This document shows, in pieces, positions 23,640 through 59,992 of a DNA stretch of 64,000 nucleotides (position 1 is the first letter of the stretch; every line of letters begins with the position of its first letter). The stretch is from Minisyncoccota bacterium (GTDB taxonomy: Bacteria; Patescibacteriota; Microgenomatia; UBA1400; UBA12028), in assembly GCA_003487265.1 (NCBI GenBank), contig DNEP01000013.1, forward strand, positions 125,736-189,735. The letters are read 5' to 3'. The position numbers and the translations under genes are program-made. The notes under the pieces were generated by a model. That model was not told the origin of the DNA, did no database searches, and saw only the letters and a list, made by a program, of their open reading frames with translations.

Positions 23640-24331
23640 ACAGAAAAACCTTTCATACGTAATGAAATAATTGTTTGAAGCGCATAAATGCCGTCTTTCC
23701 ACGTGATCTTTTTTCCTTCTTCATATGTTCTCCCAACATATGAGATTGGTACTTCCATAATTTTTTTCTTAAGCAACAACAACTTGCATGTGATTTCCGG
23801 TTCGATTCGAAAATCGTTTTCTTCAAGCCGCAGTTCGCGCATGATCTTTGTTGGTATGATTTTGTAACACGTTTCCATATCTGAAAGAATCGTGTCAAAA
23901 AGAATGTTGATAATAAAATTCAACATTTTGTTTCCCAAAAAATGCCAATAAAACATGTTCGTTCTCGCGCCGATAAATCGCGAACCAAACACAATGTCCG
24001 CTCTTCCTGAAAGAATTGGATCCAACAGTGTGGGTATATCAAAAGGACTGTATTCAAGATCCGCATCTTGAATTAATACATGCGAGCCAGTTACTTTCCG
24101 CAATCCTCGTTGAATTGCTTTCCCTTTCCCTTGATTTTTTTCTTGTTTGAGATAGATGATTTTCTTGGATTTCACAGAACGAACTTTTTTTGCGGTTGAA
24201 TCGGTGGAGCAATCGTCAATGACAATGATTTCTTTAATTCTTCTAATTTCCAGAAGTTGTCCAAGCACTCGCTGAATTGTTTTTTCTTCGTTATATGCAG
24301 GAACCAAAACTGATAATGAAACGACACTCAT
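23636..24331 (-). CDS. Glycosyltransferase family 2, polyprenyl-phosphate sugar synthase-like
   Basis: MSVVSLSVLVPAYNEEKTIQRVL...IIVIDDCSTDST...LIQDADLEY. Start at ATG 24331 in ATGA overlap. Confidence 0.85.
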   Translation of the reverse strand: MSVVSLSVLVPAYNEEKTIQRVLGQLLEIRRIKEIIVIDDCSTDSTAKKVRSVKSKKIIYLKQEKNQGKGKAIQRGLRKVTGSHVLIQDADLEYSPFDIPTLLDPILSGRADIVFGSRFIGARTNMFYWHFLGNKMLNFIINILFDTILSDMETCYKIIPTKIMRELRLEENDFRIEPEITCKLLLLKKKIMEVPISYVGRTYEEGKKITWKDGIYALQTIISLRMKGFSV

Positions 24332-26061
24332 GTTTCTCCTTTTGAGGTTCGAGTATACGAGAAAAGAGATGATGTCGCAAGACGAAAAATGATCATTCCG
24401 ATAGAAAAGATCAGGATACCTCCAAAAGAAGCAATGGTTCCCCAAAATCTCGCGGGCGTGTGTTCTGTAAACTGCGCAAATACCAAGTGTTTCCCTGCGG
24501 GAAGACGATATACAATCACCCCAGGATATTCATGATCGTCGTTGATAATCTCTATGTGTTGATTATTTGAAAAAACCTCCCAACCCGGAAAATAGGCAGT
24601 TCGTTGAATCACAAATGTTTCGCGGTCAAGAGAAAATTGATACTTCATTTGTGTCCCATCCCAAACTGAGATTTCATACGGAATCGACTGAAGCTCACAA
24701 TCAAATGCATCTGATGGAACACAATCGGAAAACCGAAAACTCACGCGATCTTGAACATGTCGCTTGGTATACTGCAACATCCAAATAGGAGTTAATTCTT
24801 CGAAAGAACTTCCCACTCCCGTATACTCAAACCAATCATAATCAGTCACCGTTGCGTATCCGCGAATCGAACGATTGATAGATGTTGAAATAAGAAGAGC
24901 GATAATAATACCCACACCTAATACAACACGTGCCCGTTTCCAATCGGCATATATCATCCCCACCAAAATAGAACTACAGAACAGTACGATGTACAGTAAT
25001 CGCCACGGAAACTGGAGGTATTGGAAAAACGAAAGGACGTTCCAAAGAAATGCAGAAACAGGCATCATCATAAACAAAGAAAAAAAGAAACACCCCCAAA
25101 GGTACGATTCCAAAATAGATTTCTTTTGTCTCAGGCGAACCGGAATGATAAACATGAGGAAAAGAGGGATCCATCCGAGATACGCGTTTTTTCTCGTATC
25201 AAACTCATGAAACCGCGTATTCCAACCCGTGATAAATAAACGTACTGTATCTGGAAACTGCTCAACAAATCCTATGCGCTGACTTCGTACCTCAAACTCA
25301 GTGTACTGACGTTCAACAAATGCCGGGATCCAAAACCAGCACGTTGAAAAAATCGCGGTAATTCCCAAAAAAACGAGTAATCGCACGCGCTTCTTCTGTA
25401 CTGCCTGATAGAAAAAGTACGGTCCAAAAAGAAACGACACCACGAAAATCATTGGCTGATGGGAAAGGAGGAATAAAATCAACGTGCCATACAAAAAAAA
25501 CATCGTTGAGAGTCGTGGCTGTTTTTCAAAAAGCAGTTTTTCAAGAAAATAAAACATCCATGGAAAAATAGCAAAAAAAGACATCTCTCCAAATGCACCG
25601 CGACCCAACACATTCAGGATTGTATAAGGAGCAAAGATATACGTAAGAGAAGAAAGAATCGCCCCCATCCAAGGAACTCCTCTTCTTCGAACAAGCATCC
25701 ACATTCCCGAGGCTCCAAAAATGAGAAAAAGAAGATACGTGGACTGATATATTGCTGTTAATGAAATGCGAGACGATCCGAGAACAGAGTACAAAACAGA
25801 ACTGACGGCATACGGAAGATGATACACAAAAAGAAATGTGGGATATCCATATGAAGAAAAAAGATGTGGTGCCCATCGCGGAGGAATTTGCTGATTTTGT
25901 AATGCCAATACATAGTTCGCGACTCGACCCAAATGATGTTCTGCATCATCTGTGACAATCATCTCGTTTGAAAGCAATTGATGATATGGTGACACGACAA
26001 GCAATACGACGACAATCACACAGAAAAAAAGAGTTTGCTGAAAAGAACGCCTCATTACCAC
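24328..26061 (-). CDS. Large polytopic membrane protein, YfhO-like GT-C candidate (family A paralog 2)
   Basis: DDAEHHLGRVANYVLALQNQQIPPRWAPHLFSSYGYPTFLFVYHLPY, paralogous to 2550..4217 and 29028..30680. Confidence 0.6.
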   Translation of the reverse strand: MVMRRSFQQTLFFCVIVVVLLVVSPYHQLLSNEMIVTDDAEHHLGRVANYVLALQNQQIPPRWAPHLFSSYGYPTFLFVYHLPYAVSSVLYSVLGSSRISLTAIYQSTYLLFLIFGASGMWMLVRRRGVPWMGAILSSLTYIFAPYTILNVLGRGAFGEMSFFAIFPWMFYFLEKLLFEKQPRLSTMFFLYGTLILFLLSHQPMIFVVSFLFGPYFFYQAVQKKRVRLLVFLGITAIFSTCWFWIPAFVERQYTEFEVRSQRIGFVEQFPDTVRLFITGWNTRFHEFDTRKNAYLGWIPLFLMFIIPVRLRQKKSILESYLWGCFFFSLFMMMPVSAFLWNVLSFFQYLQFPWRLLYIVLFCSSILVGMIYADWKRARVVLGVGIIIALLISTSINRSIRGYATVTDYDWFEYTGVGSSFEELTPIWMLQYTKRHVQDRVSFRFSDCVPSDAFDCELQSIPYEISVWDGTQMKYQFSLDRETFVIQRTAYFPGWEVFSNNQHIEIINDDHEYPGVIVYRLPAGKHLVFAQFTEHTPARFWGTIASFGGILIFSIGMIIFRLATSSLFSYTRTSKGET

Positions 26062-27614
26062 AAAACGCTTTCAATAGAACTCGCTTCTATCACTTTTATA
26101 TCTGGACTAATCTGAACTTCTGAAAGAATTCTCGAGTACCGCTGTTGCCCCCACCATTCATCAAAAAATCGCTGAACTCCTGGTTTTTCGATAATAAAAA
26201 ATACGCGTTCGGGGGTTCCCTGTTGTTGAGGAAGCGTACGGAGCAACTCTTCTTTTTCCGGAATATAGACCGTTTCGTTCGGTTTATATGAAAACTCAAC
26301 CGGAAGAGGTTTTCCTTGCATCGCCTGCCACAAATATATGTACTGATACGAATAATCGTAGATATCTGGAACGTAATGAAACGACCGATATCGAAGTGTT
26401 CCTGCGCGTTCGCGAATCCACTCAATTGCACGGAGTTTGACGGGGAGCATTTCTTGGCTCTCGTACAATCGATATTTTTCGATTTTCTGATATTGATGCA
26501 GATGTGCAATTGGAGTTGTAATCATCAATACAAGATACACTCCATAAAAAAACCACGGAAGTGTACGGATCATATCTGCAACAAGAAACACAACGACCGG
26601 AAGCAACGAAATAACATACCAAACATTGAAATGAAGAAAGAAATATCCAAATATTGGGAGAAAGAGAAAGATCGCGTACTCTCTCCAGTATGAGGGAACA
26701 ATTCGCGTGCGAAGAATTGAAAGCATCGCGCCAATAAAAATAAACACGAAGAGCAGTTTTGTGTATAACATGATTTGCACATCGAAACGAGAAAAAAGTT
26801 CAGGGAAAACCGCTAACTTCAGTTCACCTGTTATTTGTCGAAAAACATCCAATGACCGCGACAAACTGAACGCATCTTTCGAGGTGGAAGAAAAGTAGGC
26901 AACTACCGAACGCGTTTGCAAAAAGTCATGTCGAACTTCAAAAAGGAGTTGCGGAATAAAGGGAATGAAAAATCCGAGGATAACAGCGCCTATTTTTTGT
27001 GCATCAAGCATTTTCTTGCGAAAAAAAAGAAAGATTGGTAAAAATGCCAGATAAAAAATGGCAAACGCAGCGCTGAAATGAAAACCCATCGATGCGATAA
27101 AGGCTAAAAGAAAATAGTTCATTCGCTTCTGAGGATATGCGTCTATTCGTCGTAGAAAAAGAAAAAACAGTATTGTGATGAGCGACATTGGAAACGGATT
27201 CCACGCGCTTTTGGACATAATGATCCACGATGGTGCGGATCCCAAAATCACCGCTTCGGTTTTCCCAAAGTACTTCCACAATATGAATATTTGAATCAGC
27301 ACAAGAATCTGCATTGTGACTATAGCTGATACAGGATTTCCATTCGAAATTGCGTACGCCGGCGCAAGAAGGTAGTACCATCCCGATCCAAAAAAGACGC
27401 CTGGAATACTCGTCCACGGCCCAATGAGTTTTGGACTCATCGTTCGGATCATATGAAGAATCGCGACAGAATCTTTTCCGTGATCAAAAGAAAATGGAAT
27501 GACATTTTGTGAAATATAGGGAACGCGTGTGAAAAGAAAAATGCACGCAACAAAGAAATATGGGAAAAATCCGCGTGCTCTTTTCAACCAATTTTTGCTC
27601 AAAAACGTTTTCAT
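26055..27614 (-). CDS. Polytopic membrane protein, GT-C-like family B paralog 1
   Basis: FSFDHGKDSVAILHMIRTMSPKLIGPWTSIPGVFFGSGWYYLLAPAYAISNGNP. Motif D(D/H)xxRD/KD...GPxTSxG...YYY...NP is shared with 30682..32190 and 35545..37071. Confidence 0.55.
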   Translation of the reverse strand: MKTFLSKNWLKRARGFFPYFFVACIFLFTRVPYISQNVIPFSFDHGKDSVAILHMIRTMSPKLIGPWTSIPGVFFGSGWYYLLAPAYAISNGNPVSAIVTMQILVLIQIFILWKYFGKTEAVILGSAPSWIIMSKSAWNPFPMSLITILFFLFLRRIDAYPQKRMNYFLLAFIASMGFHFSAAFAIFYLAFLPIFLFFRKKMLDAQKIGAVILGFFIPFIPQLLFEVRHDFLQTRSVVAYFSSTSKDAFSLSRSLDVFRQITGELKLAVFPELFSRFDVQIMLYTKLLFVFIFIGAMLSILRTRIVPSYWREYAIFLFLPIFGYFFLHFNVWYVISLLPVVVFLVADMIRTLPWFFYGVYLVLMITTPIAHLHQYQKIEKYRLYESQEMLPVKLRAIEWIRERAGTLRYRSFHYVPDIYDYSYQYIYLWQAMQGKPLPVEFSYKPNETVYIPEKEELLRTLPQQQGTPERVFFIIEKPGVQRFFDEWWGQQRYSRILSEVQISPDIKVIEASSIESVLW

Positions 27615-29050
27615 TTTCGAAGAAGCGTTCCAAACTCAAATATAACTTTCTTATATCCAAATAAGAGTATCACAACAAGAAAACTTGTTCCAGAAATCAA
27701 GATTCCTTGAGCAAGCGATGACACCGATGCGATGTGCGATGTGTTCCAAAATATTCCCACTGCGATAAGTGCCAAACTCGCGACAAACTGTCTCCACACT
27801 TGATCAAGTACAGAAATCGCAACAAATCGTTTTACATAAATCACGGGCAGGATTGAGGTAAACGAAATAATCGCAGATGCTAACGCGAACCCGTGATATC
27901 CGAAAAAATACATACAAATCGGCGTGACCACCCAAGTCAAAACCGTCCACATCGTCATCAATCGCAAAGTGGTATTGATTTGACCAATTGCGCTCAACGT
28001 ATTTGTGAGCGGAGTTGAAATTCCCGCCCATGCAATGTTCACACAAAAGAAATATAACGAAAAAAGAGCGGGTTGCCACTTCAAGTAGCGTGGCAATACT
28101 TCGATGAGCGGTAGAGAAAATACTGCCAATCCTGCGAGTAATGGAAAAATTAGCAACGTCACAAAAAACATAGACTTTTCAATCGCCCGTTTTAATTGTT
28201 GAGGATGATCTTGTAATCTTGAAAACGTTGGAAAGGTTACCGCCATCACCGAGTTCACCGTGAATTGATAGGGAAACATTGACCACCGCTTCGACCAACT
28301 TATGTATCCCATCTCGGTATCCTTGATCATCAACGAAATGAACACCACGAAAAAATCATCTTTGATTCGTGCCAAAAAATCGTTGAGTTGAAAAGCAACA
28401 CCGAATCGAAGCAAACCCTGTAATGCTTGACGTGAAAACGAAAACCCAATTTTCCAGGATCGTAACGCGTACATCACAACGACGCCAACAACGCCACGCG
28501 CGAGCACTGCGTACGTGTAACTGGAAACGCCTTTTCCCTGAGAAGCTGCCCAAATCGCAACACCATAGAAAACAAGATTTTCAAAAATCTGTGGAAAGAC
28601 TAAAGTGTTGAATTTCAATTCGCGTTCAAGCAAAATTGAAGGAATTGTTTTTAAAGAAGCAAGAACAAATGAAAAGCCTAATGCGTATAACAGATATAGA
28701 GATTGTCCCGAAATCTTCGAAACGTGTATCCAAAATGGCGTTAACAGTACAATCACCAAAAAAATAAGCATCGCTAAACCCTGTTGAACAGTAAAGGTCG
28801 TTCGAAGTTCGAGAAGTGTTGGCTCTTCTTTTTTTTGGATAAGCGATGCAGCCAAACCAATATCAGAAAGAAAAGTAAATACATTTACCGCAGAAGTGAC
28901 AACAAAAAATACGCCAAAATCTGCTGGCACAAGATAATACCCCAACAACAATTGCGCAACAAATCCAATCCCTTGCAGAAGCAGGGATCGGAGTGCATAT
29001 CCAATCACTCCACGGATAGATCGTTTTCTAATGTTTTCGATAGTCTGCAT
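27611..29050 (-). CDS. Wzx-type polysaccharide/lipid-linked oligosaccharide flippase (MOP superfamily)
   Basis: 479 aa with about 12-14 TM. N-terminal region GYALRSLLLQGIGFVAQLLLGYYLVPADFGVF...LSDIGLAASLIQ is typical of the Polysacc_synt/Wzx family. Confidence 0.72.
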   Translation of the reverse strand: MQTIENIRKRSIRGVIGYALRSLLLQGIGFVAQLLLGYYLVPADFGVFFVVTSAVNVFTFLSDIGLAASLIQKKEEPTLLELRTTFTVQQGLAMLIFLVIVLLTPFWIHVSKISGQSLYLLYALGFSFVLASLKTIPSILLERELKFNTLVFPQIFENLVFYGVAIWAASQGKGVSSYTYAVLARGVVGVVVMYALRSWKIGFSFSRQALQGLLRFGVAFQLNDFLARIKDDFFVVFISLMIKDTEMGYISWSKRWSMFPYQFTVNSVMAVTFPTFSRLQDHPQQLKRAIEKSMFFVTLLIFPLLAGLAVFSLPLIEVLPRYLKWQPALFSLYFFCVNIAWAGISTPLTNTLSAIGQINTTLRLMTMWTVLTWVVTPICMYFFGYHGFALASAIISFTSILPVIYVKRFVAISVLDQVWRQFVASLALIAVGIFWNTSHIASVSSLAQGILISGTSFLVVILLFGYKKVIFEFGTLLRK

Positions 29051-38268: not shown

Positions 38269-39234
38269 TTATGCGTTCTTCTCTAATTCCAGTTCCGCTT
38301 TCACCATTTTCTCAACCAAATCTCTGAATGATGTTTTTGGCTTCCATCCAAGTTGCTTCATCGCTTTCGAAGCGTCGCCGATTAAATAATCCACCTCCGC
38401 CGGCCGATCGTAACGGACATCGTGTTCGTAGTACTGTTTCCAATCTTTCAGACCTGCAACATCGCATGCGATTTCCAAAAATTCTTGAACTGAATGAGAT
38501 TCGCCTGTTGCGATCACATAATCATCTGGCGTTGGCTGCTGTAACATGAGCCACATCGCTTCGACATAGTCCCCCGCATATCCCCAATCGCGTTTTGCGT
38601 TCAAGTTACCGAGTTTTACGGTTTGTTGTTTCCCATACGAAATACGTGCAACTGCATTCGCGATTTTTCTTGTGACGAACTCAAGACCTCGACGGGGAGA
38701 TTCGTGATTGAACAACATTCCCGAACACGCGTACATCCCATACGACTCTCGATAATTTACCGTGATCCAGTGTCCATACACCTTTGCAACTCCATACGGA
38801 GAACGTGGGTAAAAAGGAGTGGTTTCTTTTTGCGGTGTCTCTTGAACTTTTCCGAACATTTCCGAGCTCGAAGCTTGATAGATACGAGCGAGAGGGTGCG
38901 CGAGTCGGACCGCCTCCAACACACGCGTCACCCCTAACGCGGTAAACTCCCCCGTGAGCACAGGCTGTTCCCATGAAGCTTGAACAAAGCTCTGCGCGGC
39001 AAGATTGTACACTTCGTCGGGCTCGATTGATTTCACCGCATTTGTGATCGAATGCTGATCAATAAGATCACCACTAATCAACTCAATCTCGTGCACGATG
39101 TGTTTAATACGCTCGAAATTTTGCGTGCTCGTTCGACGAGTCAATCCAAACACCTGGTATCCTTTTGCCAACAACAGCTCGGCAAGATACGATCCATCTT
39201 GTCCTGTAATACCTGTTATGAGTGCTTTTTTCAT
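38269..39234 (-). CDS. gmd: GDP-mannose 4,6-dehydratase
   Basis: [30 protein letters not shown] is a canonical Gmd N-terminus. Start at ATG 39234 with AAAGGAG RBS 6 nt upstream. The ORF extension to 39393 is non-homologous. Confidence 0.9.
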
Positions 39235-39334
39235 GTGCTCCTTTATTCTATGCGTATCAACTATAATTTTTCTTTCTTTTCTATTGTAGTACGATCTTGA
39301 GTTGTTTGCGAGCGTGAGAGTTCTGTAAATGAAG

Positions 39335-42300
39335 TTAGGGGTGTGTAAGCGCCAATAATTGCGCATACTCCGACGATCGCACGATTTGTTCAATTACATC
39401 ACGATACGCATCTGCCAACTGAAGATGTGGAAGAGTTGCGCCAACATATCCTGCAGTTCCCACAGGATTTGAGGTTCGCGATCTCACCGTATGATCCAAC
39501 TCAACAAGCATTGAACTTAATGTGGTGACAATCTTCTCAAGTTGCCTTTCTTGCAGCGCATCTCCAATATCTTCTGGAACTGTGTATCTCAAAGTATCTG
39601 TAGTACCTTTTAATTCACGCTCTATCTCCTCTTTCGGAAAAATCGAGTTGCCGGATTTCTCAAGCACATGTAAAAATGCCAGGAGCACAGAAGTTGCAGC
39701 TTGATCTTCCAATATGAGTGCATCAAAAGAAAAGGACAATGTATCTTTCATATCTGGAAGTATTTTGTTGTTGCTCAACTCATCACAACGGTTTCGAATA
39801 AAATCAACCGTTGAACGCCAAACAATAGCGGAAAAATCATCTTTCATTTGGAAAAAAGATAAATTTTTCTCTGGCGTGGTGTTTGCGAATTTGTCTAGTT
39901 CGGAAAAAACGGCGGTAAGCCAACGCTTCATTTCCTCTTGAAACTTCTCAAGATTATGAAGATGTGTTTGGACTTTTTCTTCCTCTGACAAACTTGAAAG
40001 TATTGGTTTATGTGTTGAAAATGTGAAAATGTACTTCATCCATGGAATTTGAAGTAGCGATTCGGTAATCGCAGATTTTGAGTTCAGCCCAGTCGGCGTT
40101 CGCGCATCATTTTTCGCTTTTTCTACAAGATGTGAGTAAATTTGATCAACATGTAATCGTAAAATGTATTTTATCTGCTCAATACTTGCCGTCATATATT
40201 CTTGTTGTTGAGCGGTATTCTCTGCTGAATATTCTTTGATTTTTTTCAAAAAGAACCTATACAGCAACTGTCCTTTAAACTCATCCTCTGTTTTCAAAAC
40301 ATGAAAAAGCAAAAGTCGATCTTCAGGTGAACCGATAAACATCGCATGAATCATCTCAGCGATTTCGGCTTCATTTAACCTTTTATTAGTTTTGTTTTCC
40401 CACACTTCACGCGAAAGAGTGTAAAGTCGTCTGCGGACAATTTCCTGTGGTTTTGTCATTTCAAGTAACGAACGCATTTGCTGTACTTCTTCATCCGCAT
40501 GAGCATCCCAATCTCTTTCGATCATGCTCCATAAAGATGCGAAGTTTTCTGATTCTAATGCATTCGAATACGCTCGATTTTTATATGAAGAAAGCTCGTC
40601 TGATTGAACTGAGAGAAGATACATCCATTCTGCCGGCATTCCATTTCGAAAAACACGTCCAAGAATCTGTTCGAAATCTCGGCGAGATTGTGGAAGATCG
40701 AGCATAACCAGAAGTGCGCCGTTCGTGTTCAACAACTCTTGCGTTTGCCCAAACCACGACTGCATCTCTAAGAAATGTTCATCATTTGTAAAAACATCTC
40801 GCGCGAGTTGAAAAATGACGTGTGGAGGCAGTTCATTTTCAATAACATCCAACTGAAGCGTTTCTTGACAATACAGTCTCATTTTAGAAAGGAGAGACAT
40901 ACAGTTTGTTGGAAACGCCCGAACCAAGTCCACACCCCGTCCCATAACGGGTGTTCCCATTGTGATAAAATCTGGATTTGTTGCTTGCGTATATCTTTCC
41001 CGTTCCAATTTTTGCACAATTGTGCGCGAATTCACAACTTGAACTGTTGAGTTGAGAAACACATTGGGATTGTCCTTCTTTAATTCTTCAAGCATCTGAA
41101 GCTCATCAGTTGAACAAATAAAAATAATGGGTCGACGCGATCCATCTGAAAAACTCGACTGCGTTTGAATGATTTCTAAAATCCGTTTTTTCTTTGCTTC
41201 CGAATTCTGCAAAAAATATTCTTTTGGATTGTCTTTTGGAAGTGCAAAACAAACCGTAGGTTCAGTTGTATCGTTCATTGTAAACAAAAGACGATTCCTA
41301 TTTTCGTCAAACATAAAATGCTGTGGATATTGCGCTGGAAGCAACATCATTCTACGAAGAAACGACCTCGAAAATACATGATACTCATCAAGCAAAAATT
41401 GTTCCAACCCTTTCACGGTTCCTGTCGTTCCAGTAAACAAGACCGGTTTTTTGAGCATGTTTAGCGCATTTATTTCGTTGATCTGCGGACGTTCATCTAC
41501 AAGCACATAACTCATATCATGCTTTACCCGCAACGCAAGTTCTTGAAGAAACTCAAAGTTAACTTCCAATCTCGGACGACCCGTTTCATCGAGTGGAATA
41601 ATCTCCATATCGGTGCGCATGTACGCTTTGTTTTCTTTGAGAATGTACGCATTTAATGTTGTTTGAATAGCAACATTGTATCGAGAGATCGTTTGAAGAA
41701 ACAGGCGAATGGGCTCAGAAATTGGAGAGTTCATAAACAACGGTTCTTCCGAAAGTTGCAGAAAAAAATCGAACAGTTGGCTGGGATGAGAAAAATCGAG
41801 TTCACGTACGAGTTTTTCAACGGTCATGGGAAACAACACTTGAAATGTTTCCCTGTTTTTTCTTTGCTTCCGATATGATTTCACCGAATACGCTGCGCTT
41901 TCTTGACGCAGAAGTGACGCGAGCGCGTTGTGCATACCCTGAATCAATCCAAGTTTCTCAACAAGAATATCTTTTCCTGAATCTTGAAGGTAGAGATGTT
42001 CGTCATCGGGTTGTTCTTGATCATCTTGGAAATCACCTTTGTGAAAATTTTTGTTGAGCAAAAAAAGATTTGCCTGACCACCCTCTTCTTGCCTACACAC
42101 CGCGATTGTTTCTTGTATCACCTTTACAATGTTTTTTTTGTCTTGAAATGCGAGTTTTTCGCCCGCGATGATATAGCTCGTGTTTAGAGATTCAAGTAGT
42201 AACGCATCGAGTTCATCTGCCACAATAGAAAAAAGGTCAACGCCTTTTCGCCGATACTCCGATCGAAGCATTTGATGTGCTAGTGAACCGAGTGAAGAAT

Positions 42301-42940
42301 ATTTTATGTTTGAACGATTCAACGCTTGAAATAGTGGTTGAAATCGTTCTTGATCACGTTCCGCTAGCATATCGTTTGTAGTAGCAATCCACACATCTCG
42401 ACCAAAAACCCCATGGGCCAGTGCCACAAGTGGAAGCAGGACCGCTTTTCCTTCACCTGTTTTTATCTCAGCAACCGCACCGAAGATCATCGTGATCGCC
42501 TCGATAATCTGAAGTTTATATGGCATCACCCCAGTTTCACGTCGCATCATTTCACACGATATCGCAACAATCTCAACAATGTTGGACTCTAAAAATGTAA
42601 ATAAACGATTTCTTGATTCAGGGTCGTTTGCTTTCACTTGTTGTTCTTGTATAAAACTTTTTGCCTCGGCACAAATAGTTGAATACGCAAATTTAAGATT
42701 TTCTGATTCATTGTGTGAGAGTTTTTCATTTCGTAAAAAGACTTGTTCAGCAAGATGATGGACTTTATCTGGTGAAAGAAACGACTCTCTCTTATTTGAA
42801 TCGCCGATTGTGCCCAAGAATCTCTCGATGGGATTGGAAGAACCTTCAAGAAACGATTGCATATCGCGACTTTCTATAGGTGTTGCCACCACTGAAGAGT
42901 ACGCTGTAACGTTTCGTCGAGTGGGATTTGTGGTTGCCAC
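39335..42940 (-). CDS. Highly divergent SecA-family DEAD-motor ATPase (1201 aa; possibly 1175 aa from ATG 42862)
   Basis: SecA NBD1 motifs in order. [59 protein letters not shown] (compare E. coli SecA HFDVQLLGG...IAEMRTGEGKTL...GVHVVTVNDYLAQRD). Walker [24 protein letters not shown] (compare [21 protein letters not shown]). [15 protein letters not shown] (compare LAGMTGTADTEAFEF). [13 protein letters not shown] (compare TNMAGRGTDI). [16 protein letters not shown] (compare RIDNQLRGRSGRQG). Long N- and C-terminal extensions. Confidence 0.7.
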
Positions 42941-43815
42941 CCAAATTCTCGGTGAATTTTTGAAATGTCCGCAATTAATGTTGGAATTTCCGTTGCACGA
43001 AGCCGTTCTTCATCGCGAATGATCGGAATGTTTGCATTAGACAATGCCAGTAATTGATCGAGAATCTCGCTCATTTTGTGACCAACTCCCGATCCCACGT
43101 GGTAGACCTCACCTGTTTTTCCCTCACGAAGGAGAAGTTCATATGCGCGCACCACATCTTTCACATCCGAAAAGTCACGTACATCTGAAAGACTCCCAAC
43201 ATGAAGCGTGTCCTGCTCCCCACGTTCAATCTTCACAATTTGCTCACACATCGCGGGGACAAAAAAGGCTGAAGTTTGTCGTTCACCCGTGTGATTGAAA
43301 GGTCGAACACGGACAATGTCGAGTTTTTTACCAATGGAGTACACATAGGAAAGCATTTCTTGTGTTGCTTTTGAAACGGCATACGGATTAACCGGAAGAA
43401 ATGGTTGTGTTTCCACAATCGGGATTTGAGATGGGGGAACAACACCATATGAATCAGCCGAACCTATGGTGAGCAAGCGGACGTTGGGAAGCGCCGCTTC
43501 ACACGCTTGAAGGAGATTTAAATGAAGAACAATGTTGTTTGTGAGAATTTCTCGAGCTTGTTCGAAGCTTTTTCCAACAACGGCGATAGAAGCAAGATGG
43601 ATAATCGCATCAGGATGAAGCTCGCGAAGCATGTACTCAAGATCGCGATATTGAGTGAGATCAACAACGCGATATCGGTCTTCTGGTAAAAATTGATGCT
43701 CTATTGAAGGGATTGTTGTCGTGGTTCCCCAAACATCATCGTATCCTAATGCGTGTAGGTACGCGCACAAATGTGATCCAACAAATCCCGTTGCACCGGT
43801 GATGAGTAATCTCAT
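42874..43815 (-). CDS. rmd: GDP-4-keto-6-deoxy-D-mannose reductase (Rmd), GDP-D-rhamnose-forming
   Basis: MRLLITGATGFVGSHLCAYL, DAIIHLAS, NPYAVSKATQE, VRPFNHTGERQTSAFFV, VGSLSDVRDFSDVKDV. These motifs align with Pseudomonas Rmd (LFVTGLSGFVGKHL..., NPYAVSKLAAE, ARPFNHIGPGQ, VGDIDVSRDFLDVQDV). Confidence 0.8.
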   Translation of the reverse strand: MRLLITGATGFVGSHLCAYLHALGYDDVWGTTTTIPSIEHQFLPEDRYRVVDLTQYRDLEYMLRELHPDAIIHLASIAVVGKSFEQAREILTNNIVLHLNLLQACEAALPNVRLLTIGSADSYGVVPPSQIPIVETQPFLPVNPYAVSKATQEMLSYVYSIGKKLDIVRVRPFNHTGERQTSAFFVPAMCEQIVKIERGEQDTLHVGSLSDVRDFSDVKDVVRAYELLLREGKTGEVYHVGSGVGHKMSEILDQLLALSNANIPIIRDEERLRATEIPTLIADISKIHREFGWQPQIPLDETLQRTLQWWQHL

Positions 43816-45171: not shown

Positions 45172-45837
45172 ATGGAAATACACATCCTAACTTTGTTTCC
45201 AGAGATGATCACACACGCTGTTTCGCAAAGCGTGCTTGGTCGTGCGCAAAAAGCGGGTGTATTTTCTGTTCAAGCGCATAATCTTCGAGACTGGACCCAA
45301 GATGCGCATCGGACCACAGATGACCGGCCGTTCGGCGGAGGTCAAGGAATGATTATGATGATCGAGCCGATCGATCGAGCGCTAAACTCGCTCGGAGCGA
45401 AAAAAGGAACACCTCAACAGAAAATTATTTTGACTTCTGCAAAAGGAACGCTTTATTCCCAACAAGTTGCACAAGCGTGGATCTCGTTTTCAAAACTTTT
45501 TATTATCTGTGGGCATTATGAAGGTGTGGACGAACGCGTCGCGCAATACTTGGTTGATGAAGAAGTCCGAATTGGAAACTACGTGTTAACCGGCGGGGAG
45601 CTTCCCGCGCTTGTGATGGTGGATAGTGTTGCTCGCCTCCTCCCTAACGCGCTGGGAAATGAACAGAGTGCGATCGAAGAATCATTTATGCGTGAAGGAT
45701 ACCTGGAATATCCGCAGTACACTCGCCCAAGCGAGTACAACGGGTTGAGTGTGCCTGAGGTTTTAACACAGGGAAATCATAAAGATATTACAGATTGGAA
45801 AAATCAACACGCGCAACAGCTTCTCGAAGAGAAGTAA
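45172..45837 (+). CDS. trmD: tRNA (guanine37-N1)-methyltransferase
   Basis: MEIHILTLFPEM...DDRPFGGGQGMIMMIEPI...VLTGGELPALVMVDSVARLLP. Canonical TrmD SPOUT motifs. Confidence 0.9.
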   Translation: MEIHILTLFPEMITHAVSQSVLGRAQKAGVFSVQAHNLRDWTQDAHRTTDDRPFGGGQGMIMMIEPIDRALNSLGAKKGTPQQKIILTSAKGTLYSQQVAQAWISFSKLFIICGHYEGVDERVAQYLVDEEVRIGNYVLTGGELPALVMVDSVARLLPNALGNEQSAIEESFMREGYLEYPQYTRPSEYNGLSVPEVLTQGNHKDITDWKNQHAQQLLEEK

Positions 45838-53890: not shown

Positions 53891-54247
53891 TTATAGTTTT
53901 CTAAACACGACCAACATTGCAAGAACTGCTCCGTATGTATCATACAGAATATCGCGTAACGTTGCTGTTCGGCCTGGAACATTTGACTGATGAAACTCGT
54001 CGGTCATTGCGTATGCGATTGTGAGGAACAACGGAAGGATCCACTGATGTCTCTGAGGCCTCATTGAATGTGTTCTGGCCATATACAAAAGAAAAAACAA
54101 CACGAAATATACAACCATGTGTGCGATTTTTTTTAGAAAAAAATCTGCCCAAATAACATCGGGACCTGGAAGAACCGATTGTGCAGACAACAGGTAGATG
54201 AGTACCATCCACAAACCAGAAGGAAGATACCAGAAGATCGTTTTCAT
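53891..54247 (-). CDS. VanZ-like family small membrane protein
   Basis: 118 aa with 4 TM. MKTIFWYLPSGLWMVLIYLLSAQSVLPGP...KIAHMVVYFVLFFLLY resembles VanZ-like (PF04892). Confidence 0.5.
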   Translation of the reverse strand: MKTIFWYLPSGLWMVLIYLLSAQSVLPGPDVIWADFFLKKIAHMVVYFVLFFLLYMARTHSMRPQRHQWILPLFLTIAYAMTDEFHQSNVPGRTATLRDILYDTYGAVLAMLVVFRKL

Positions 54248-55419
54248 GCGGAGTTCATTGTATCATTCCACAATGAAATCAACCAAAAAACATGCACAAG
54301 GAGCATACCAAAACAACATTGCACGATGCGGTTGTTTAGCGAAGTGCGAAAAATACGGTAATACAACACCGTCTTGAATACATGCGCATTCTTGTGTGGA
54401 GAATAGCGAAACTGCGGAAAACCAATGAATCGTTGTTTTTCTAAAGGAAAAAGAGTGTTGTTTTTTTGAGTTGAGAAGTCGTTACCTTTATCTGCAACCC
54501 GTTCGATATCTGAAGTTGATTGACGCGTTTCATATGGATCGATGTTTTTTCCTTTTTTTGTTGGAGAAGCTTGGATCCACACGTTGTCCTGCATCCGTTG
54601 CCAGGATGTTCCCGACACACAAGAAGTATACGAATATGAATCAATCTCCTCTCCCCGAAGAAAAATAGAGATCGTATCACCCGAGTTATTCAGTGCACGC
54701 GTAGACCATTCAATCATAAATATTTGGTTAGGAAGAATTGTTTGATCGGAAACTTGATATTGAAATGTTTGTGAATCGCGCAACGTCATCCCGCGAACAC
54801 TCAACTCTTCATTTGTTTTATTTTCTATCTCGATCCATTCATTTCCCGTTCCACAAGCGGATACCTCCGAAAGACGGAGGTCTGTTTGCGTGGCATCGCG
54901 TGCGGACAATTCAGGCAAGGGCGAGGCTAAAGGTGACGCTGTGGGAGATGGAGAAGGTGATGGAAAAGACGAAGGTTGAGGCGTTCCTGATGGTAGGAGT
55001 TGATCATTTTTTGAACCTCGAGTTGGCACTGACCATCCCCATCCACTCAACAATAATGAGAAAGATTTCCCTTCGGGAGAGGAGGTGACAATTCCCGTCC
55101 GCTGAATTCCCTCTATTGCTTCCTCTAATACAACCTCCTCTTTGTCGTTGTTGAGAGAAATCCCCGTGATATCTCTTGATAACACAGTGTATTCTTGTGC
55201 GGGGAAAAGAATATCGTTGAGGGAATAGAGATGTGTTGCCCCATATTGATCTGATACATTCCAACCACTTCCTTGAATATCACCGTCAGTGGTATTTAAA
55301 ATCTCGATCCATTCCGTTGCATCATCTCCTTCAGGATTAATCATCACTTCTGTTAATTGAAGTGGCGGGGGTGAAGATGCAAGTACTCGAGTGACAAACA
55401 GAAATAGAAAAAGAAGCAT
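54244..55419 (-). CDS. Secreted protein with two lamin-tail domains (LTD) separated by a Pro/Ser-rich linker
   Basis: Signal peptide MLLFLFLFVTRVLASS. LTD 1 LQLTEVMINPEGDDATEWIEILN. Linker PSPSPSPTASPLASPLP. LTD 2 LRLSEVSACGTGNEWIEIENKTNEEL. Confidence 0.72.
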   Translation of the reverse strand: MLLFLFLFVTRVLASSPPPLQLTEVMINPEGDDATEWIEILNTTDGDIQGSGWNVSDQYGATHLYSLNDILFPAQEYTVLSRDITGISLNNDKEEVVLEEAIEGIQRTGIVTSSPEGKSFSLLLSGWGWSVPTRGSKNDQLLPSGTPQPSSFPSPSPSPTASPLASPLPELSARDATQTDLRLSEVSACGTGNEWIEIENKTNEELSVRGMTLRDSQTFQYQVSDQTILPNQIFMIEWSTRALNNSGDTISIFLRGEEIDSYSYTSCVSGTSWQRMQDNVWIQASPTKKGKNIDPYETRQSTSDIERVADKGNDFSTQKNNTLFPLEKQRFIGFPQFRYSPHKNAHVFKTVLYYRIFRTSLNNRIVQCCFGMLLVHVFWLISLWNDTMNSA

Positions 55420-58888: not shown

Positions 58889-59992
58889 TTAACGATTCAT
58901 CATCACTTCAGCTTCAACAAAAAGATCAAGCTCTCCATCAAGCACCGCCTCGGTGTTCGAGGTTTCAACATCTGTTCGCACATCCTTCACTAAGTGATAT
59001 GGATGCAAGACGTAATTTCGTATTTGATTCCCCCATCCTGCTATTTTATATTCCCCCTTCACTTGTGAGATTTCTTTATCTCTTGCCTGTTCTTCGCGTA
59101 AAGCCAGTTCCGATTTTAACAACATGAGCGCGACTTTCCTGTTTTGCTCTTGATATCTTTCCTGTCTACTTTCGATAATGATTCCTGTGGGTTTATGCAC
59201 CAATCGAACGGCCGTATTCACTTTGTTCACGTTTTGTCCTCCATGACCCCCTGCACGACTAAAGGTCCATTCAAGATCGTCTGGATTAAACACAATTTCA
59301 TCACTCGTATCCTCGATCATTGGAAGAACCTGCACACCTGAGAAAGATGTTTGTCGCAGGTTGTCAGCATTAAATGGACTTTGGCGAACTAAACGATGCG
59401 CCCCAGTCTCTCGTTTCAAATACCCGTACGCAAAAGGTCCTGAAACACGCAACACACATGATTTAATTCCCGCTTCGTCACCTTGATTTTCATCCAACTG
59501 TACACATTTCCATCCTTTTTTTTCAAAAAATCGAAGGTACATTCGTTTTACCATTTGGGCCCAATCCATCGCCTCGGTTCCACCCTGTCCAGCATGAATC
59601 GAAAGAATCGCATCGTTTTCATCATATTTTCCAGAAAAATATGATTTTATTTCAAGTGATCGAAGCAACGATTCTGCATCTGCCAACAACGTTCGTAGTT
59701 CGTTTGCAACATGCTCATCCTCAATGTTTTCATAGAGATCGAAAAACGCAGCCACATCGTTGATTTTCTTTTCGACTGCTTCAAATGTCTCAAGATGAAG
59801 TTTTGATTGTGCGAGCTTTTTGTTTATCTCGGTTGATCGCTGAATGTCTGACCAAACTGCGGGATCTTCCAACTCTTTTGAGAGTGATGCGATGCTCAAC
59901 TTCACCCCATCAAGATCGTATCGAGATCGCAATCCCTCAAATCGTTCTTGTAGTCCTTCAAATTGTTGATGAAAAGATGTGTGAACTGCCAT
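58889..59992 (-). CDS. prfB: Peptide chain release factor 2
   Basis: SPF tripeptide ([10 protein letters not shown]) specific to RF2. GGQ motif ([13 protein letters not shown]). Single uninterrupted 367-aa ORF. Confidence 0.9.

What the first reader, a model, noticed from the sequence alone, without database searches (positions are those of the whole stretch)
39335..42940. Divergent SecA-family DEAD-motor ATPase (about 1200 aa) inside a glycosylation operon
All SecA motor motifs are present in canonical order: Walker A ([10 protein letters not shown]), [18 protein letters not shown]-box ADELD, TGTTGT, MGRGVDL, and an arginine-finger-like GRVFRNG. Each motif is strongly diverged from housekeeping SecA. 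The protein carries about 130-aa N-terminal and about 200-aa C-terminal extensions. It sits between gmd and rmd in a 24-kb co-directional operon of GT-C/GT2 glycosyltransferases and a Wzx flippase. That suggests a dedicated motor for export or translocation of a glycosylated substrate, conceptually like accessory SecA2. No SecY2 or Asp genes are present.
Basis: partly seen in the sequence, partly recalled or inferred. Interest (0 to 1): 0.88.

Follow-up and report, generated by a model that had tools for sequence, protein, structure and literature searches.

The report
Orphan, highly divergent SecA-like ATPase gene
A groundwater CPR bacterium (Candidatus Pacebacteria) carries a heavily diverged copy of the protein-export motor SecA that no other sequenced organism has; it was inserted into a sugar-biosynthesis operon that related bacteria keep intact without it, so it is an evolutionary curiosity and there is no evidence that it belongs to the glycosylation machinery.

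Summary
ORF 39335..42940 (-), 1201 aa from GTG and more likely 1175 aa from ATG 42862, is SecA-derived. It passes Pfam SecA_DEAD (E 1.4e-24), all six quoted motifs occur once and in canonical order, a profile alignment is collinear with the whole SecA architecture, and the top 36 fold matches are SecA/SecA2.

It is far outside the family. Identity to SecAs is 18-22%, against a 30% minimum between SecAs. It keeps 82 of 217 near-invariant positions. SecA and SecA2 equivalog models score 37-74 bits against cutoffs of 725-1493. PPXD and scaffold/wing are undetectable by Pfam, and the Walker A Thr is Ala.

It is an orphan. A search of 1.84 billion representatives found only itself, as one near-identical population.

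Eight CPR-labelled sister loci, plus L021, keep ugdh, rmd-like, gmd and GT2-GtrA with rmd-like abutting gmd, and no SecA-like gene appears in any of 80 gmd loci. The gene is therefore a lineage-specific insertion and not a conserved operon component. No secY2 or asp genes are nearby, and the claimed 130-aa N-terminal extension is about 20-46 aa.

Best reading: a species-restricted, probably still nucleotide-binding accessory SecA paralog with an unproven role. I could not test whether a canonical secA exists in the same genome.

The parts
39335..42862 (-). SecA-like ATPase CDS, 1175 aa from ATG 42862 including the stop. Alternative upstream GTG starts at 42892 (1185 aa) and 42940 (1201 aa) overlap the rmd-like gene.
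   Evidence: ORF list. Start-site reasoning. Public gene calls of 1175/1184/1185/1201 aa.
42155..42757 (-). NBD1 first half (aa 62-262, 1201 numbering). It carries Walker A (42443-42472, GEGKA with Thr replaced by Ala), motif Ia (42353-42394) and the DEAD box ADELD (42206-42220).
   Evidence: Pfam SecA_DEAD E 1.4e-24. PDB phmmer hits SecA2/SecA at E 3.5e-14. AF2 pLDDT 83-93. Motif coordinates. Thr to Ala.
41456..42154 (-). Insert at the PPXD position (aa 263-495). There is no Pfam SecA_PP_bind hit. A remnant PLDETGRP (41573-41596) aligns with SecA IVDEFTGR.
   Evidence: No PF01043 hit. Collinear hhalign. Tested alone it is not significant. No homologues found (a weak negative).
41417..41434 (-). 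Motif III, TGTTGT (aligns with SecA GMTGTA), in the second half of NBD1.
40571..41233 (-). NBD2 (aa ~570-790) with motif V MGRGVDL (40925-40945) and motif VI SRR...GRVFRNG (40640-40660 for GRVFRNG).
   Evidence: Pfam P-loop_SecA E 4.6e-4, 20.3 bits, below the cutoff of 27. SecA HMM domain 2. hhalign of aa 500-800 alone gives E 8e-5.
40397..40468 (-). Remnant of the SecA scaffold helix: [24 protein letters not shown] aligns with LLEYDDVMNkQRevIY..Rr.lLe.
   Evidence: The match is weak but recurs in three independent alignments.
39338..40396 (-). Unassigned, all-helical C-terminal region (aa 849-1201) with no detectable SecA_SW or SEC-C domain and no transmembrane segment.
   Evidence: No Pfam hit. 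hhalign not significant. AF2 pLDDT below 50 with the MSA and 40 alone. No homologues found (a weak negative). Maximum Kyte-Doolittle 19-residue window 1.51.
42874..43815 (-). Upstream flank: extended-SDR NAD-dependent epimerase/dehydratase (rmd-like). In sister genomes its stop abuts the gmd start.
38269..39234 (-). Downstream flank: gmd (GDP-mannose 4,6-dehydratase), true start ATG 39234 preceded by AAGGAG. The 100-nt spacer 39235-39334 follows the SecA-like stop.
   Evidence: TIGR01472, 437.7 bits against cutoff 415.

Best explanation
Shown:
- The gene encodes a soluble, SecA-derived two-lobe ATPase in the order NBD1, insert at the PPXD position, NBD1, NBD2, scaffold-helix remnant, then about 350 aa of novel helical C-terminus.
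- It has diverged far beyond any known SecA or SecA2.
- It exists in a single Candidatus Pacebacteria (CPR) population.
- It sits as a lineage-specific 3.6-kb insertion exactly between the rmd-like gene and gmd of a cell-envelope sugar operon that sister CPR genomes conserve without it.

Inferred:
- It is an accessory paralog and not the housekeeping SecA.
- It is co-transcribed with the operon. It is translated from ATG 42862, 9 nt after the rmd-like stop, the slot that gmd's start codon occupies in relatives.
- It still binds nucleotide, because Walker A Lys, DExD, TGT, GRGxD and the SRR/GRxxR arginines are selectively kept. The Walker A Thr to Ala change predicts weak or regulated hydrolysis.
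- The most likely mode of action is a 'SecA2-only' type accessory motor or switch that works with the canonical SecYEG on a narrow client set. The remodelled PPXD-position insert and C-terminal region would set client specificity.
- Its link to glycosylation is one of co-expression only. It is not an integral pathway step.

Confidence is about 0.9 for identity and insertion history, and about 0.3 for the accessory-export mechanism. The overall figure of 0.55 blends the two.
For: SecA ancestry:
- Pfam SecA_DEAD scores 87 bits.
- The best PDB sequence hits are C. difficile SecA2 and then SecAs.
- A SecA HMM aligns motifs V and VI and the start of the scaffold.
- hhalign gives probability 99% and is collinear, query 35-1050 against SecA 4-828.
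- The Foldseek top 36 are all SecA/SecA2, E 2e-19 to 5e-9.

Extreme divergence:
- Identity to SecAs is 18-22%, against a SecA-SecA minimum of 30%.
- 82 of 217 near-invariant columns are kept.
- NCBIfam SecA/SecA2 models score 37-74 bits against cutoffs of 725-1493.

Selection on the motor:
- Conserved residues are retained at 60% in the SF2 motifs against 31% elsewhere, Fisher p = 2e-4.
- The ORF is intact over 1175 codons.

Orphan status:
- It was the only hit below 1e-30 among 1.84 billion representatives.
- The cluster has 8 near-identical members.
- Nothing turned up in GTDB genomes or viral contigs.

Insertion:
- Eight CPR-labelled sister loci plus L021 have rmd-like abutting gmd, and 13-gene synteny holds in L008 and L009.

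Other points:
- GC, GC3 and RSCU are native, so it is not an obvious recent foreign gene.
- The same locus appears in NCBI, JGI, ENA and Logan assemblies, so it is not an assembly artefact.
- SecG lies 9.5 kb beyond the window, so canonical Sec parts exist.
- There is precedent for SecA2 acting without SecY2, and for secA2 embedded in a cell-surface locus (PMC3297441, PMC5842191, PMC7503281).
Against: - No canonical secA was located for this genome. The tools cannot fetch whole assemblies, so 'accessory' is an inference.
- PPXD, scaffold/wing and the two-helix finger are needed for SecY docking and polypeptide clamping. They are not detectable on their own and are modelled at low confidence.
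- The AF2 model was built from a SecA MSA and so leans towards the SecA fold outside the NBDs.
- Walker A GKA may mean hydrolysis is lost altogether.
- There is no sequence diversity, so purifying selection cannot be measured by dN/dS.
- No candidate client, secY2 or asp gene is nearby.
- There is no expression evidence.
Confidence: 0.55

Rival explanations
1. The protein is a dedicated translocation motor that belongs to the glycosylation operon and exports, or presents to the extracytoplasmic GT-C enzymes, a specific glycosylated substrate, analogous to the accessory SecA2 system.
For: - The gene is embedded co-directionally among GT-C, GT2 and Wzx genes and nucleotide-sugar genes, with a very short gap to the upstream gene.
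- An LTD-domain surface-type protein lies 11 kb away.
- SecA2 genes do sit in cell-surface and glycan loci in Firmicutes (PMC5842191).
Against: - The operon is conserved without the gene in eight CPR-labelled sister loci plus L021, with rmd-like and gmd adjacent.
- None of 80 gmd loci has a relative of the protein.
- The protein has no orthologue anywhere, so there is no conserved gene linkage.
- No SecY2, Asp or GtfA/B genes were found.
- CPR genomes are densely co-directional, so adjacency is weak evidence.
Confidence: 0.12
2. It is a functionless or decaying duplicate. A secA copy or foreign fragment landed in the rmd-gmd spacer, is carried along by read-through transcription, and is drifting as a pseudo-ATPase on its way to loss.
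For: - Single-species distribution.
- Loss of 62% of SecA near-invariant residues, including the Walker A Thr and the DEARTP stretch.
- Unrecognisable substrate-binding and SecY-binding domains.
- Weak Shine-Dalgarno sequence before ATG 42862, compared with a strong one before gmd.
Against: - The 3.5-kb reading frame is intact despite divergence so deep that neutral drift would have introduced stops.
- Conserved-residue retention is concentrated in the ATPase motifs (p = 2e-4), which neutral decay does not predict.
- Codon usage is fully native.
- The sequence is identical in several independent samples.
Confidence: 0.25
3. It is the organism's only, housekeeping SecA, simply fast-evolving as many CPR proteins are.
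For: - No canonical secA was found within the window or within 10 kb either side.
- GenBank's automated annotation calls it 'Protein translocase subunit SecA'.
Against: - It scores 70-74 bits against SecA equivalog cutoffs of 800-814.
- It lies well outside the identity range spanned by SecAs of different phyla.
- Sister CPR genomes lack any gene at this position. Their SecA is therefore elsewhere, and this gene is an addition and not the vertically inherited copy.
- No intermediate sequences exist in 15 billion proteins.
- Only about 84 kb of a genome of roughly 1 Mb (my estimate from general knowledge of CPR genomes, not measured here) was inspected.
Confidence: 0.03
4. It is a SecA-like ATPase module of a conflict, toxin or effector system, or of a phage or mobile element, and is not a translocase paralog.
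For: - SecA-like ATPase domains have been reported in giant actinobacterial toxins and in Amoebophilus effectors (PMC8195603, PMC3482391).
- The patchy, single-lineage distribution and the insertion into an operon resemble mobile cargo.
- A PHROG family matches NBD1.
Against: - No PADLOC hit.
- No toxin, immunity, integrase or transposase domains in the protein or its neighbours.
- No flanking repeats.
- Viral SecA-like genes are no closer than bacterial SecAs.
- Composition is native.
Confidence: 0.05

Closest known systems
Housekeeping SecA (TIGR00963 / PRK12904; structures 1nl3, 3jv2, 2fsf, 6itc)
   Same: - Same SF2 'DEAD motor', with SecA-specific wording of motifs I, Ia, II, III, V and VI.
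- Same domain order, with an insertion at the PPXD site inside NBD1.
- Remnants of PPXD (DETGRP) and of the scaffold helix.
- Soluble, with no transmembrane segment.
- Best structural matches.
   Different: - 18-22% identity, and only 38% of near-invariant residues kept.
- Walker A reads GKA instead of GKT.
- PPXD, scaffold/wing and SEC-C are undetectable by profile.
- About 300 aa longer, with a novel helical C-terminus.
- Found in one species only and located in an inserted position.
'SecA2-only' accessory SecA2 (C. difficile 6t4h/6sxh, M. tuberculosis 4uaq, Listeria, B. anthracis)
   Same: - Presumed second SecA-type ATPase with no partner SecY2.
- Lacks the zinc-finger C-terminal tail.
- The top PDB sequence hit is C. 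difficile SecA2 (E 3.5e-14).
- C. difficile secA2 also lies within a cell-surface locus (PMC5842191).
- SecA2s show remodelled wing domains (PMC7503281).
   Different: - Known SecA2s keep all SecA domains recognisable, reach family cutoffs and are conserved across genera.
- This protein scores 37-57 bits against SecA2 cutoffs of 725-1100.
- It is an orphan, has a degenerate Walker A, and no client is known.
aSec system (SecA2/SecY2/Asp1-3 with GtfA/B, exporting serine-rich glycoproteins)
   Same: The concept of a SecA paralog encoded alongside glycosyltransferases (PMC3297441).
   Different: - No SecY2, Asp, GtfA/B or serine-rich substrate in the window or within 10 kb either side.
- The glycosyltransferases here are GT-C and GT2 enzymes acting with polyprenol-linked sugars, not cytoplasmic GtfA/B.
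- The linkage is not conserved.
Short SecA-like proteins (~610-670 aa; NBD1-PPXD-NBD2 without scaffold/wing), e.g. Rubripirellula WP_146534921.1
   Same: They are non-canonical SecA paralogs, and they are among the top hits to the query's NBD1.
   Different: - They keep a Pfam-detectable PPXD and NBD2 and end just after motif VI.
- The query lacks a detectable PPXD and adds about 410 aa after NBD2.
- It shows no specific affinity for them (NBD1 scores 40-65 bits for all groups).

Membership tests
SecA (housekeeping preprotein translocase ATPase) | Whole-protein score at or above the curated equivalog cutoff (TIGR00963, NF009538) | tested here: not met
   70.6 bits against 800, and 74.2 bits against 814.
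SecA (housekeeping preprotein translocase ATPase) | SecA_DEAD NBD1 domain (PF07517) | tested here: met
   87.3 bits against a cutoff of 24.6, E 1.4e-24. pLDDT 83-93.
SecA (housekeeping preprotein translocase ATPase) | NBD2 (P-loop_SecA, PF21090) with motifs V and VI | tested here: inconclusive
   20.3 bits against a cutoff of 27 (E 4.6e-4). However, GRGxD and SRR...GRxxRxG align with SecA, and hhalign of aa 500-800 gives E 8e-5.
SecA (housekeeping preprotein translocase ATPase) | Preprotein cross-linking domain (SecA_PP_bind, PF01043) inserted in NBD1 | tested here: not met
   No Pfam hit at E up to 10. The insert alone is not significant against a SecA profile. Only a collinear remnant, PLDETGRP, is seen.
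SecA (housekeeping preprotein translocase ATPase) | Scaffold and wing domains (SecA_SW, PF07516), including the two-helix finger | tested here: not met
   No Pfam hit. The C-terminal 420 aa alone are not significant. Only a scaffold-helix remnant at aa 825-848 is seen. Models are of low confidence.
SecA (housekeeping preprotein translocase ATPase) | Canonical Walker A, GxxxxGK[T/S] | tested here: not met
   The motif reads GEGKA. Thr is conserved at 90% or more in 67 SecAs, and the query has Ala166.
SecA (housekeeping preprotein translocase ATPase) | Vertically inherited, present in related genomes at comparable conservation | tested here: not met
   No orthologue in 1.84 billion representatives. 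Absent from the syntenic site in eight CPR-labelled sister loci plus L021.
Accessory SecA2 (SecA2-only type) | Score at or above the cutoff of a SecA2 model (TIGR03714, TIGR04221, TIGR04397, NF012136) | tested here: not met
   57, 57.5, 46 and 37.3 bits against cutoffs of 930, 725, 1085 and 1100.
Accessory SecA2 (SecA2-only type) | A canonical SecA1 co-exists in the same genome | not testable with these tools
   Only the window plus about 10 kb on each side could be read. SecG was found, but no secA or secY. The whole assemblies (e.g. GCA_003484695.1) could not be retrieved.
Accessory SecA2 (SecA2-only type) | ATP-dependent export of a defined client subset | not testable with these tools
   Requires biochemistry or genetics, and the organism is uncultivated.
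aSec (SecA2/SecY2) glycoprotein export system | Adjacent secY2, asp1-3, gtfA/B and a serine-rich repeat substrate | tested here: not met
   Pfam scans of nearly all window ORFs of 150 aa or more (a few short or overlapping ORFs were skipped), plus the gene calls within 10 kb either side, show none.
Integral component of the CPR sugar/GT-C operon | Conserved co-occurrence with the operon in related genomes | tested here: not met
   L008-L011, L013, L015, L016, L018 and L021 keep ugdh, rmd-like, gmd and (in all but L016) GT2-GtrA without it. 13-gene synteny holds in L008 and L009.
Generic SF2 helicase (non-SecA) | Best profile and fold matches are to helicase families and not to SecA | tested here: not met
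   Helicase_C reaches only E 0.03. RIG-I/MDA5/DinG folds score 1e-5 to 1e-3 against 2e-19 to 5e-9 for SecA (with the caveat that the MSA was made of SecAs).

The most novel reading that the evidence does not exclude
A newly evolved, third style of accessory Sec motor. A SecA-derived ATPase has had its client-binding parts (the PPXD-position insert and a novel ~350-aa helical C-terminus) rebuilt. It was recruited into a CPR cell-envelope operon so that export of a particular surface protein through the ordinary SecYEG is coupled to extracytoplasmic glycosylation by the many GT-C enzymes encoded beside it, without SecY2 or Asp partners.
Probability: 0.1. Interest if true: 0.7.

Novelty: new variant of a known kind. 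Interest (0 to 1): 0.35.

Why it matters
If functional, this would be the most divergent SecA-type motor on record. It would also be a rare snapshot of a core, normally near-immutable translocase ATPase being duplicated or acquired and radically remodelled in a reduced CPR genome. That could show which parts of SecA are indispensable for a motor and which are free to change.

In practical terms it is also a caution for annotation. GenBank labels it 'Protein translocase subunit SecA', yet it fails every SecA and SecA2 family cutoff. The case also shows that gene adjacency in densely packed CPR genomes can mislead functional inference. Its value is limited because it is a single-population orphan in an uncultivated organism. 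There is no comparative signal and no direct route to testing it in its native host.

Tried and rejected
1. dN/dS among cluster members was impossible. All 8 members are the same sequence apart from start-codon calls and 1-3 substitutions.
2. GTDB genome scan with the protein found nothing.
3. Viral-contig scans, single sequence and SecA-anchored alignment, found only ordinary SecA-level NBD1 matches.
4. PADLOC gave no hit. PHROGs gave only an NBD1 match.
5. Separate homology searches with the C-terminal 412 aa and the PPXD-position insert found nothing. The parent protein was not returned either, so these negatives are weak.
6. AF2 of the C-terminal region alone gave pLDDT 40 and was unusable, so no fold search was run on it.
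7. Flanking repeats or target-site duplication, and promoter or terminator enrichment: nothing above chance. The two junctions loosely resemble the ancestral rmd-gmd spacer, but this is too short to count as evidence.
8. Foreign-origin test by GC, GC3 and RSCU: the gene looks native.
9. Locating a canonical secA:
   - Look-ups around window-end genes, reaching about 10 kb past the right end and about 6 kb past the left, found SecG but no secA or secY.
   - None of the gmd loci contains a secA.
   - Cluster names of long-aligning SecA hits gave no CPR reference sequence.
10. A literature search for the genome names found nothing.
11. The generic SF2 helicase reading was rejected on profile and fold evidence.


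Full report
**1. Observation**

The minus-strand ORF 39335..42940 is real and uninterrupted, 1201 aa from a GTG. At this base composition a stop-free run of 1175 codons has a chance probability of about 8e-34.

| Motif | Sequence | Residues (1201 numbering) |
|---|---|---|
| Walker A | [10 protein letters not shown] | 157-166 |
| Ia | [14 protein letters not shown] | 183-196 |
| DEAD box | ADELD | 241-245 |
| III | TGTTGT | 503-508 |
| V | MGRGVDL | 666-672 |
| VI | GRVFRNG | 761-767 |

The surroundings are as described. A minus-strand block from 20751 to 45212 contains GT-C (PMT_2/PTPS_related), GT2 and Wzx genes (Wzx at 27611-29050), plus nucleotide-sugar genes.

The downstream gene is a genuine gmd (TIGR01472, 437.7 bits against a cutoff of 415). 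Its true start is ATG 39234, behind an AAGGAG site. The upstream gene is only an unassigned extended-SDR epimerase/dehydratase, so 'rmd' is a plausible label but not an established one.

**2. Start codon and size of the extensions**

The rmd-like stop (TAG, 42874-42876) is followed 9 nt later by ATG 42862. In sister genomes the gmd start codon occupies exactly this slot, 0-25 nt after the rmd-like stop. Public gene calls vary between 1175, 1184, 1185 and 1201 aa. I take 1175 aa as most likely.

SecA HMM position 47 aligns with aa 93. The N-terminal excess is therefore about 46 aa from the GTG start, or about 20 aa from the ATG start, not 130. The additional length relative to SecA is distributed as follows:
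- roughly +100 aa at the PPXD position;
- roughly +60 aa within NBD2;
- roughly +120 aa after motif VI.

**3. Is it SecA-derived?**

Yes. The evidence is:
- Pfam SecA_DEAD scores 87.3 bits against a cutoff of 24.6 (E 1.4e-24).
- The best solved-structure sequence hits are C. difficile SecA2 (E 3.5e-14) followed by SecAs.
- A SecA HMM built from 60 homologues aligns two things beyond NBD1. One is motif V ([10 protein letters not shown] against tnmAGRGtDi). The other is motif VI plus the start of the scaffold ([35 protein letters not shown] against HesrRiDnqLRGRaGRqGDPGssrFylSleDdl).
- hhalign of the whole protein against the SecA alignment gives probability 99% and a collinear path, query 35-1050 against SecA 4-828. 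The path includes a PPXD remnant (PLDETGRP against IVDEFTGR) and a scaffold-helix remnant ([24 protein letters not shown] against LLEYDDVMNkQRevIY..Rr.lLe).
- An AlphaFold2 model built on a SecA MSA has mean pLDDT 60.6 and pTM 0.54. NBD1 is at 83-93, the middle part at 55-86 and the last ~350 aa below 50.
- That model retrieves only SecA/SecA2 structures as its top 36 Foldseek matches (E 2e-19 to 5e-9; TM 0.5-0.7 normalised to the target). RIG-I/MDA5/DinG follow at 1e-5 or worse.

One caveat applies. Because the MSA consists of SecAs, the model outside the NBDs leans towards SecA by construction. There is no transmembrane segment.

**4. How far from SecA is it?**

Very far:
- NCBIfam SecA and SecA2 equivalog models score 37-74 bits against cutoffs of 725-1493.
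- There is no Pfam hit to SecA_PP_bind, SecA_SW or SEC-C. P-loop_SecA falls below its cutoff (20.3 against 27).
- Taken alone, the insert at aa 255-500 and the C-terminal 420 aa show no significant similarity to a SecA profile.
- In an alignment with 67 phylogenetically diverse SecAs, the query is 18-22% identical to them. The SecAs are 30-100% identical to each other, with a mean of 51%.
- Of 217 columns conserved at 90% or more among SecAs, the query keeps 82.
- What it keeps is non-random: 34 of 57 conserved columns within SF2 motifs against 48 of 156 elsewhere (Fisher p = 2e-4).
- Retained are Walker A Lys165, Asp242-Glu243-x-Asp245, Thr506-Gly-Thr508, Gly667-Arg-Gly-x-Asp671, Arg753, Arg754, Gln758, Gly761-Arg762 and Arg765.
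- Lost are the Walker A Thr (Ala166) and the DEARTP stretch.

From general P-loop NTPase knowledge, the Ser/Thr after the Walker Lys coordinates Mg2+. I therefore infer that nucleotide binding is preserved and hydrolysis is weakened. That step is inference, not something shown here.

**5. Distribution**

The word-indexed search of 5.8 billion clusters found only the protein itself, plus SecAs matching 7-26% of its length (one hit reached 65%). The exhaustive phmmer search of 1.84 billion 50%-identity representatives found one protein below 1e-30, which was the query itself. All other hits are driven by the ~100-aa Walker A half of NBD1.

Its 90% cluster has eight members, and they are the same sequence apart from start calls and 1-3 substitutions. 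The sources are:
- 'Microgenomates group bacterium GW2011_GWF2_45_18' (KKU02267.1) and 'GW2011_GWF1_44_10' (KKT31609.1), both auto-annotated 'Protein translocase subunit SecA';
- 'Candidatus Pacebacteria bacterium' TPA MAGs (HAU99268.1, 'hypothetical protein');
- Rifle groundwater assemblies in NCBI, JGI, ENA and Logan.

The gene is therefore real and not an assembly artefact, but it is confined to one CPR population. No diversity exists for a dN/dS test.

**6. Comparative context (the decisive result)**

A GTDB scan with gmd returned 80 loci. None encodes any relative of the SecA-like protein.

Eight CPR-labelled loci and one further locus share the order ugdh, rmd-like, gmd and (in all but L016) GT2-GtrA. 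These are L009 (Paceibacterota), L010 (Candidatus Pacebacteria CG10_44_11), L011, L013, L015 and L016 (Levybacteria), L012 (Beckwithbacteria, where rmd-like was not resolved separately from gmd), L018 (Patescibacteria), and also L008 and L021, which are labelled Pseudomonadales/Gammaproteobacteria. In those where both genes are resolved, the rmd-like stop abuts or overlaps the gmd start.

L008 and L009 match the window over 13 genes: LytR, rmlB, rmlC, rmlD, trmD (opposite strand), ugdh, rmd-like, gmd, GT2-GtrA, GT-C, GT2, unk379, GT-C. The sole difference is the missing SecA-like gene.

The 3.6-kb gene is thus a lineage-specific insertion into a conserved operon that functions without it in relatives. 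Regarding its origin:
- the insertion carries no flanking repeats;
- promoter and terminator counts are at chance level;
- GC (0.401), GC3 (0.355) and RSCU distance (0.55) are typical of the window;
- there are no defence-system or mobile-element hallmarks;
- viral contigs hold nothing closer than ordinary SecAs.

**7. Is it the housekeeping SecA?**

I could not test this directly, because the tools do not give access to whole assemblies. No secA or secY lies in the window or in the flanking sequence read (about 10 kb past the right end, about 6 kb past the left). SecG lies 9.5 kb past the right end, so canonical Sec parts exist.

Indirect evidence is strongly against. Sister genomes have no gene at this position, so their SecA is elsewhere and this gene is an addition. 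No intermediates connect it to normal SecAs. It also fails all SecA-defining domain tests except NBD1.

**8. Mechanism**

Shown: the protein is a soluble SecA-derived two-lobe ATPase with a selectively preserved nucleotide-site residue set, a remodelled insert at the PPXD position, and a novel helical C-terminus. It is encoded so that it must be transcribed with the sugar operon.

Inferred (about 0.3): it acts as a 'SecA2-only' style accessory motor or switch on the canonical SecYEG for a narrow client set. There is precedent:
- SecA2 can act alone or with SecY2 (PMC3297441).
- C. difficile secA2 sits inside the slpA cell-surface locus (PMC5842191).
- SecA2s lack the C-terminal tail and have altered wing domains (PMC7503281).

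Against this, the elements needed for SecY docking and polypeptide clamping are not demonstrable here.

The rivals are:
- a drifting, functionless insertion (0.25), disfavoured by the intact ORF and the motif-biased conservation;
- a conflict or effector-type SecA-like module (0.05; such modules are reported in PMC8195603 and PMC3482391), for which there are no supporting domains or context;
- the sole housekeeping SecA (0.03).

**9. Comparison with known systems, and novelty**

The protein works most like a SecA-family motor, and that is its ancestry. It is not a member of SecA or of any SecA2 family by the curated criteria (membership table).

It also differs from the ~610-670-aa SecA-like proteins that turned up among its best hits, for example in Planctomycetes. 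Those retain a Pfam-detectable PPXD and NBD2 and simply lack the scaffold/wing.

I rate it a new variant of a known kind: an orphan, hyper-divergent SecA paralog. The sequence is already public with an automated, and by family criteria incorrect, 'SecA' label.

**10. Verdict**

The proposed functional tie to glycosylation is undercut by comparative genomics.

Interest is moderate to low (0.35). It is a striking outlier for SecA specialists and a useful warning for annotation, but it is a single-population orphan in an uncultivated organism, with no comparative signal and no tractable route to testing it in its native host.

Noticed in passing
Proteins P0121, P0131, P0148, P0150 and others (hits); alignment A1: There is a sizeable population of ~610-670-aa SecA-like proteins with SecA_DEAD, SecA_PP_bind and P-loop_SecA but no scaffold/wing domain (43 of 53 atypical-length hits). 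Named examples are Planctomycetes proteins annotated as SecA (Rubripirellula WP_146534921.1, Planctomycetaceae MCA8982228.1). This looks like a truncated SecA paralog family of unknown role.
   Followed up: partly
L008 (CAZNOF010000008.1) and L021 (CAZHKZ010000005.1): These MAG contigs are labelled Pseudomonadales/Gammaproteobacteria but carry the CPR-type sugar operon, with gmd 78% and 69% identical to the window's. L008 shows the full 13-gene synteny with the Pacebacteria window. They may be mis-binned or misclassified CPR contigs.
   Followed up: no
window 485-37071 and L090 (beyond the left end): There is an unusually large array of GT-C paralogs (PMT_2, PMT, PTPS_related): at least 12 in the window and more beyond the left end. 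They are interleaved with GT2/GT4 genes, a Wzx flippase and several large ORFs with no Pfam hit (e.g. 20751-23075, 24328-26061, 26055-27614).
   Followed up: partly
window 42862-42876 and 39235-39334: The SecA-like ATG occupies the slot where gmd's start codon lies in sister genomes, right after the rmd-like stop. Here gmd has acquired a new 100-nt upstream spacer with a strong AAGGAG site. Both junctions loosely resemble the ancestral TAG-AAAG...ATG spacer, which hints at how the insertion occurred.
   Followed up: partly
window 58889-59992; L002 3756-4867; L089 6067-7178: prfB (RF2) is an intact 367-aa ORF in the window and in most assemblies, but it is called as 257 + 78 aa in the ANAN16 scaffold. 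This is either an assembly or strain frameshift, or a different handling of a programmed frameshift.
   Followed up: no
window 45172-45837 (+): trmD sits on the opposite strand in the middle of the sugar operon, overlapping the ends of ugdh and rmlD. This odd arrangement is conserved in L008 and L009.
   Followed up: no
window 54244-55419 (-): A Lamin-Tail-Domain (LTD) protein (Pfam E 1e-22) is encoded next to an M23 peptidase and FtsEX.
   Followed up: no
L088 222-440: SecG is encoded about 9.5 kb beyond the window's right end, next to a holin-like gene, an SBP_bac_5 protein and another PMT_2 GT-C.
   Followed up: no
window 41185-41203 and 41855-41873: A perfect 19-nt direct repeat (GTTTTTTCTTTGCTTCCGA) occurs twice inside the SecA-like gene, 670 nt apart. 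Its significance is unknown.
   Followed up: no
(tool behaviour): Sub-queries made from the C-terminal region and from the PPXD-position insert did not return even the parent protein P0001 in the word-indexed homology search. Negatives from that tool for sub-fragments should be read cautiously.
   Followed up: no
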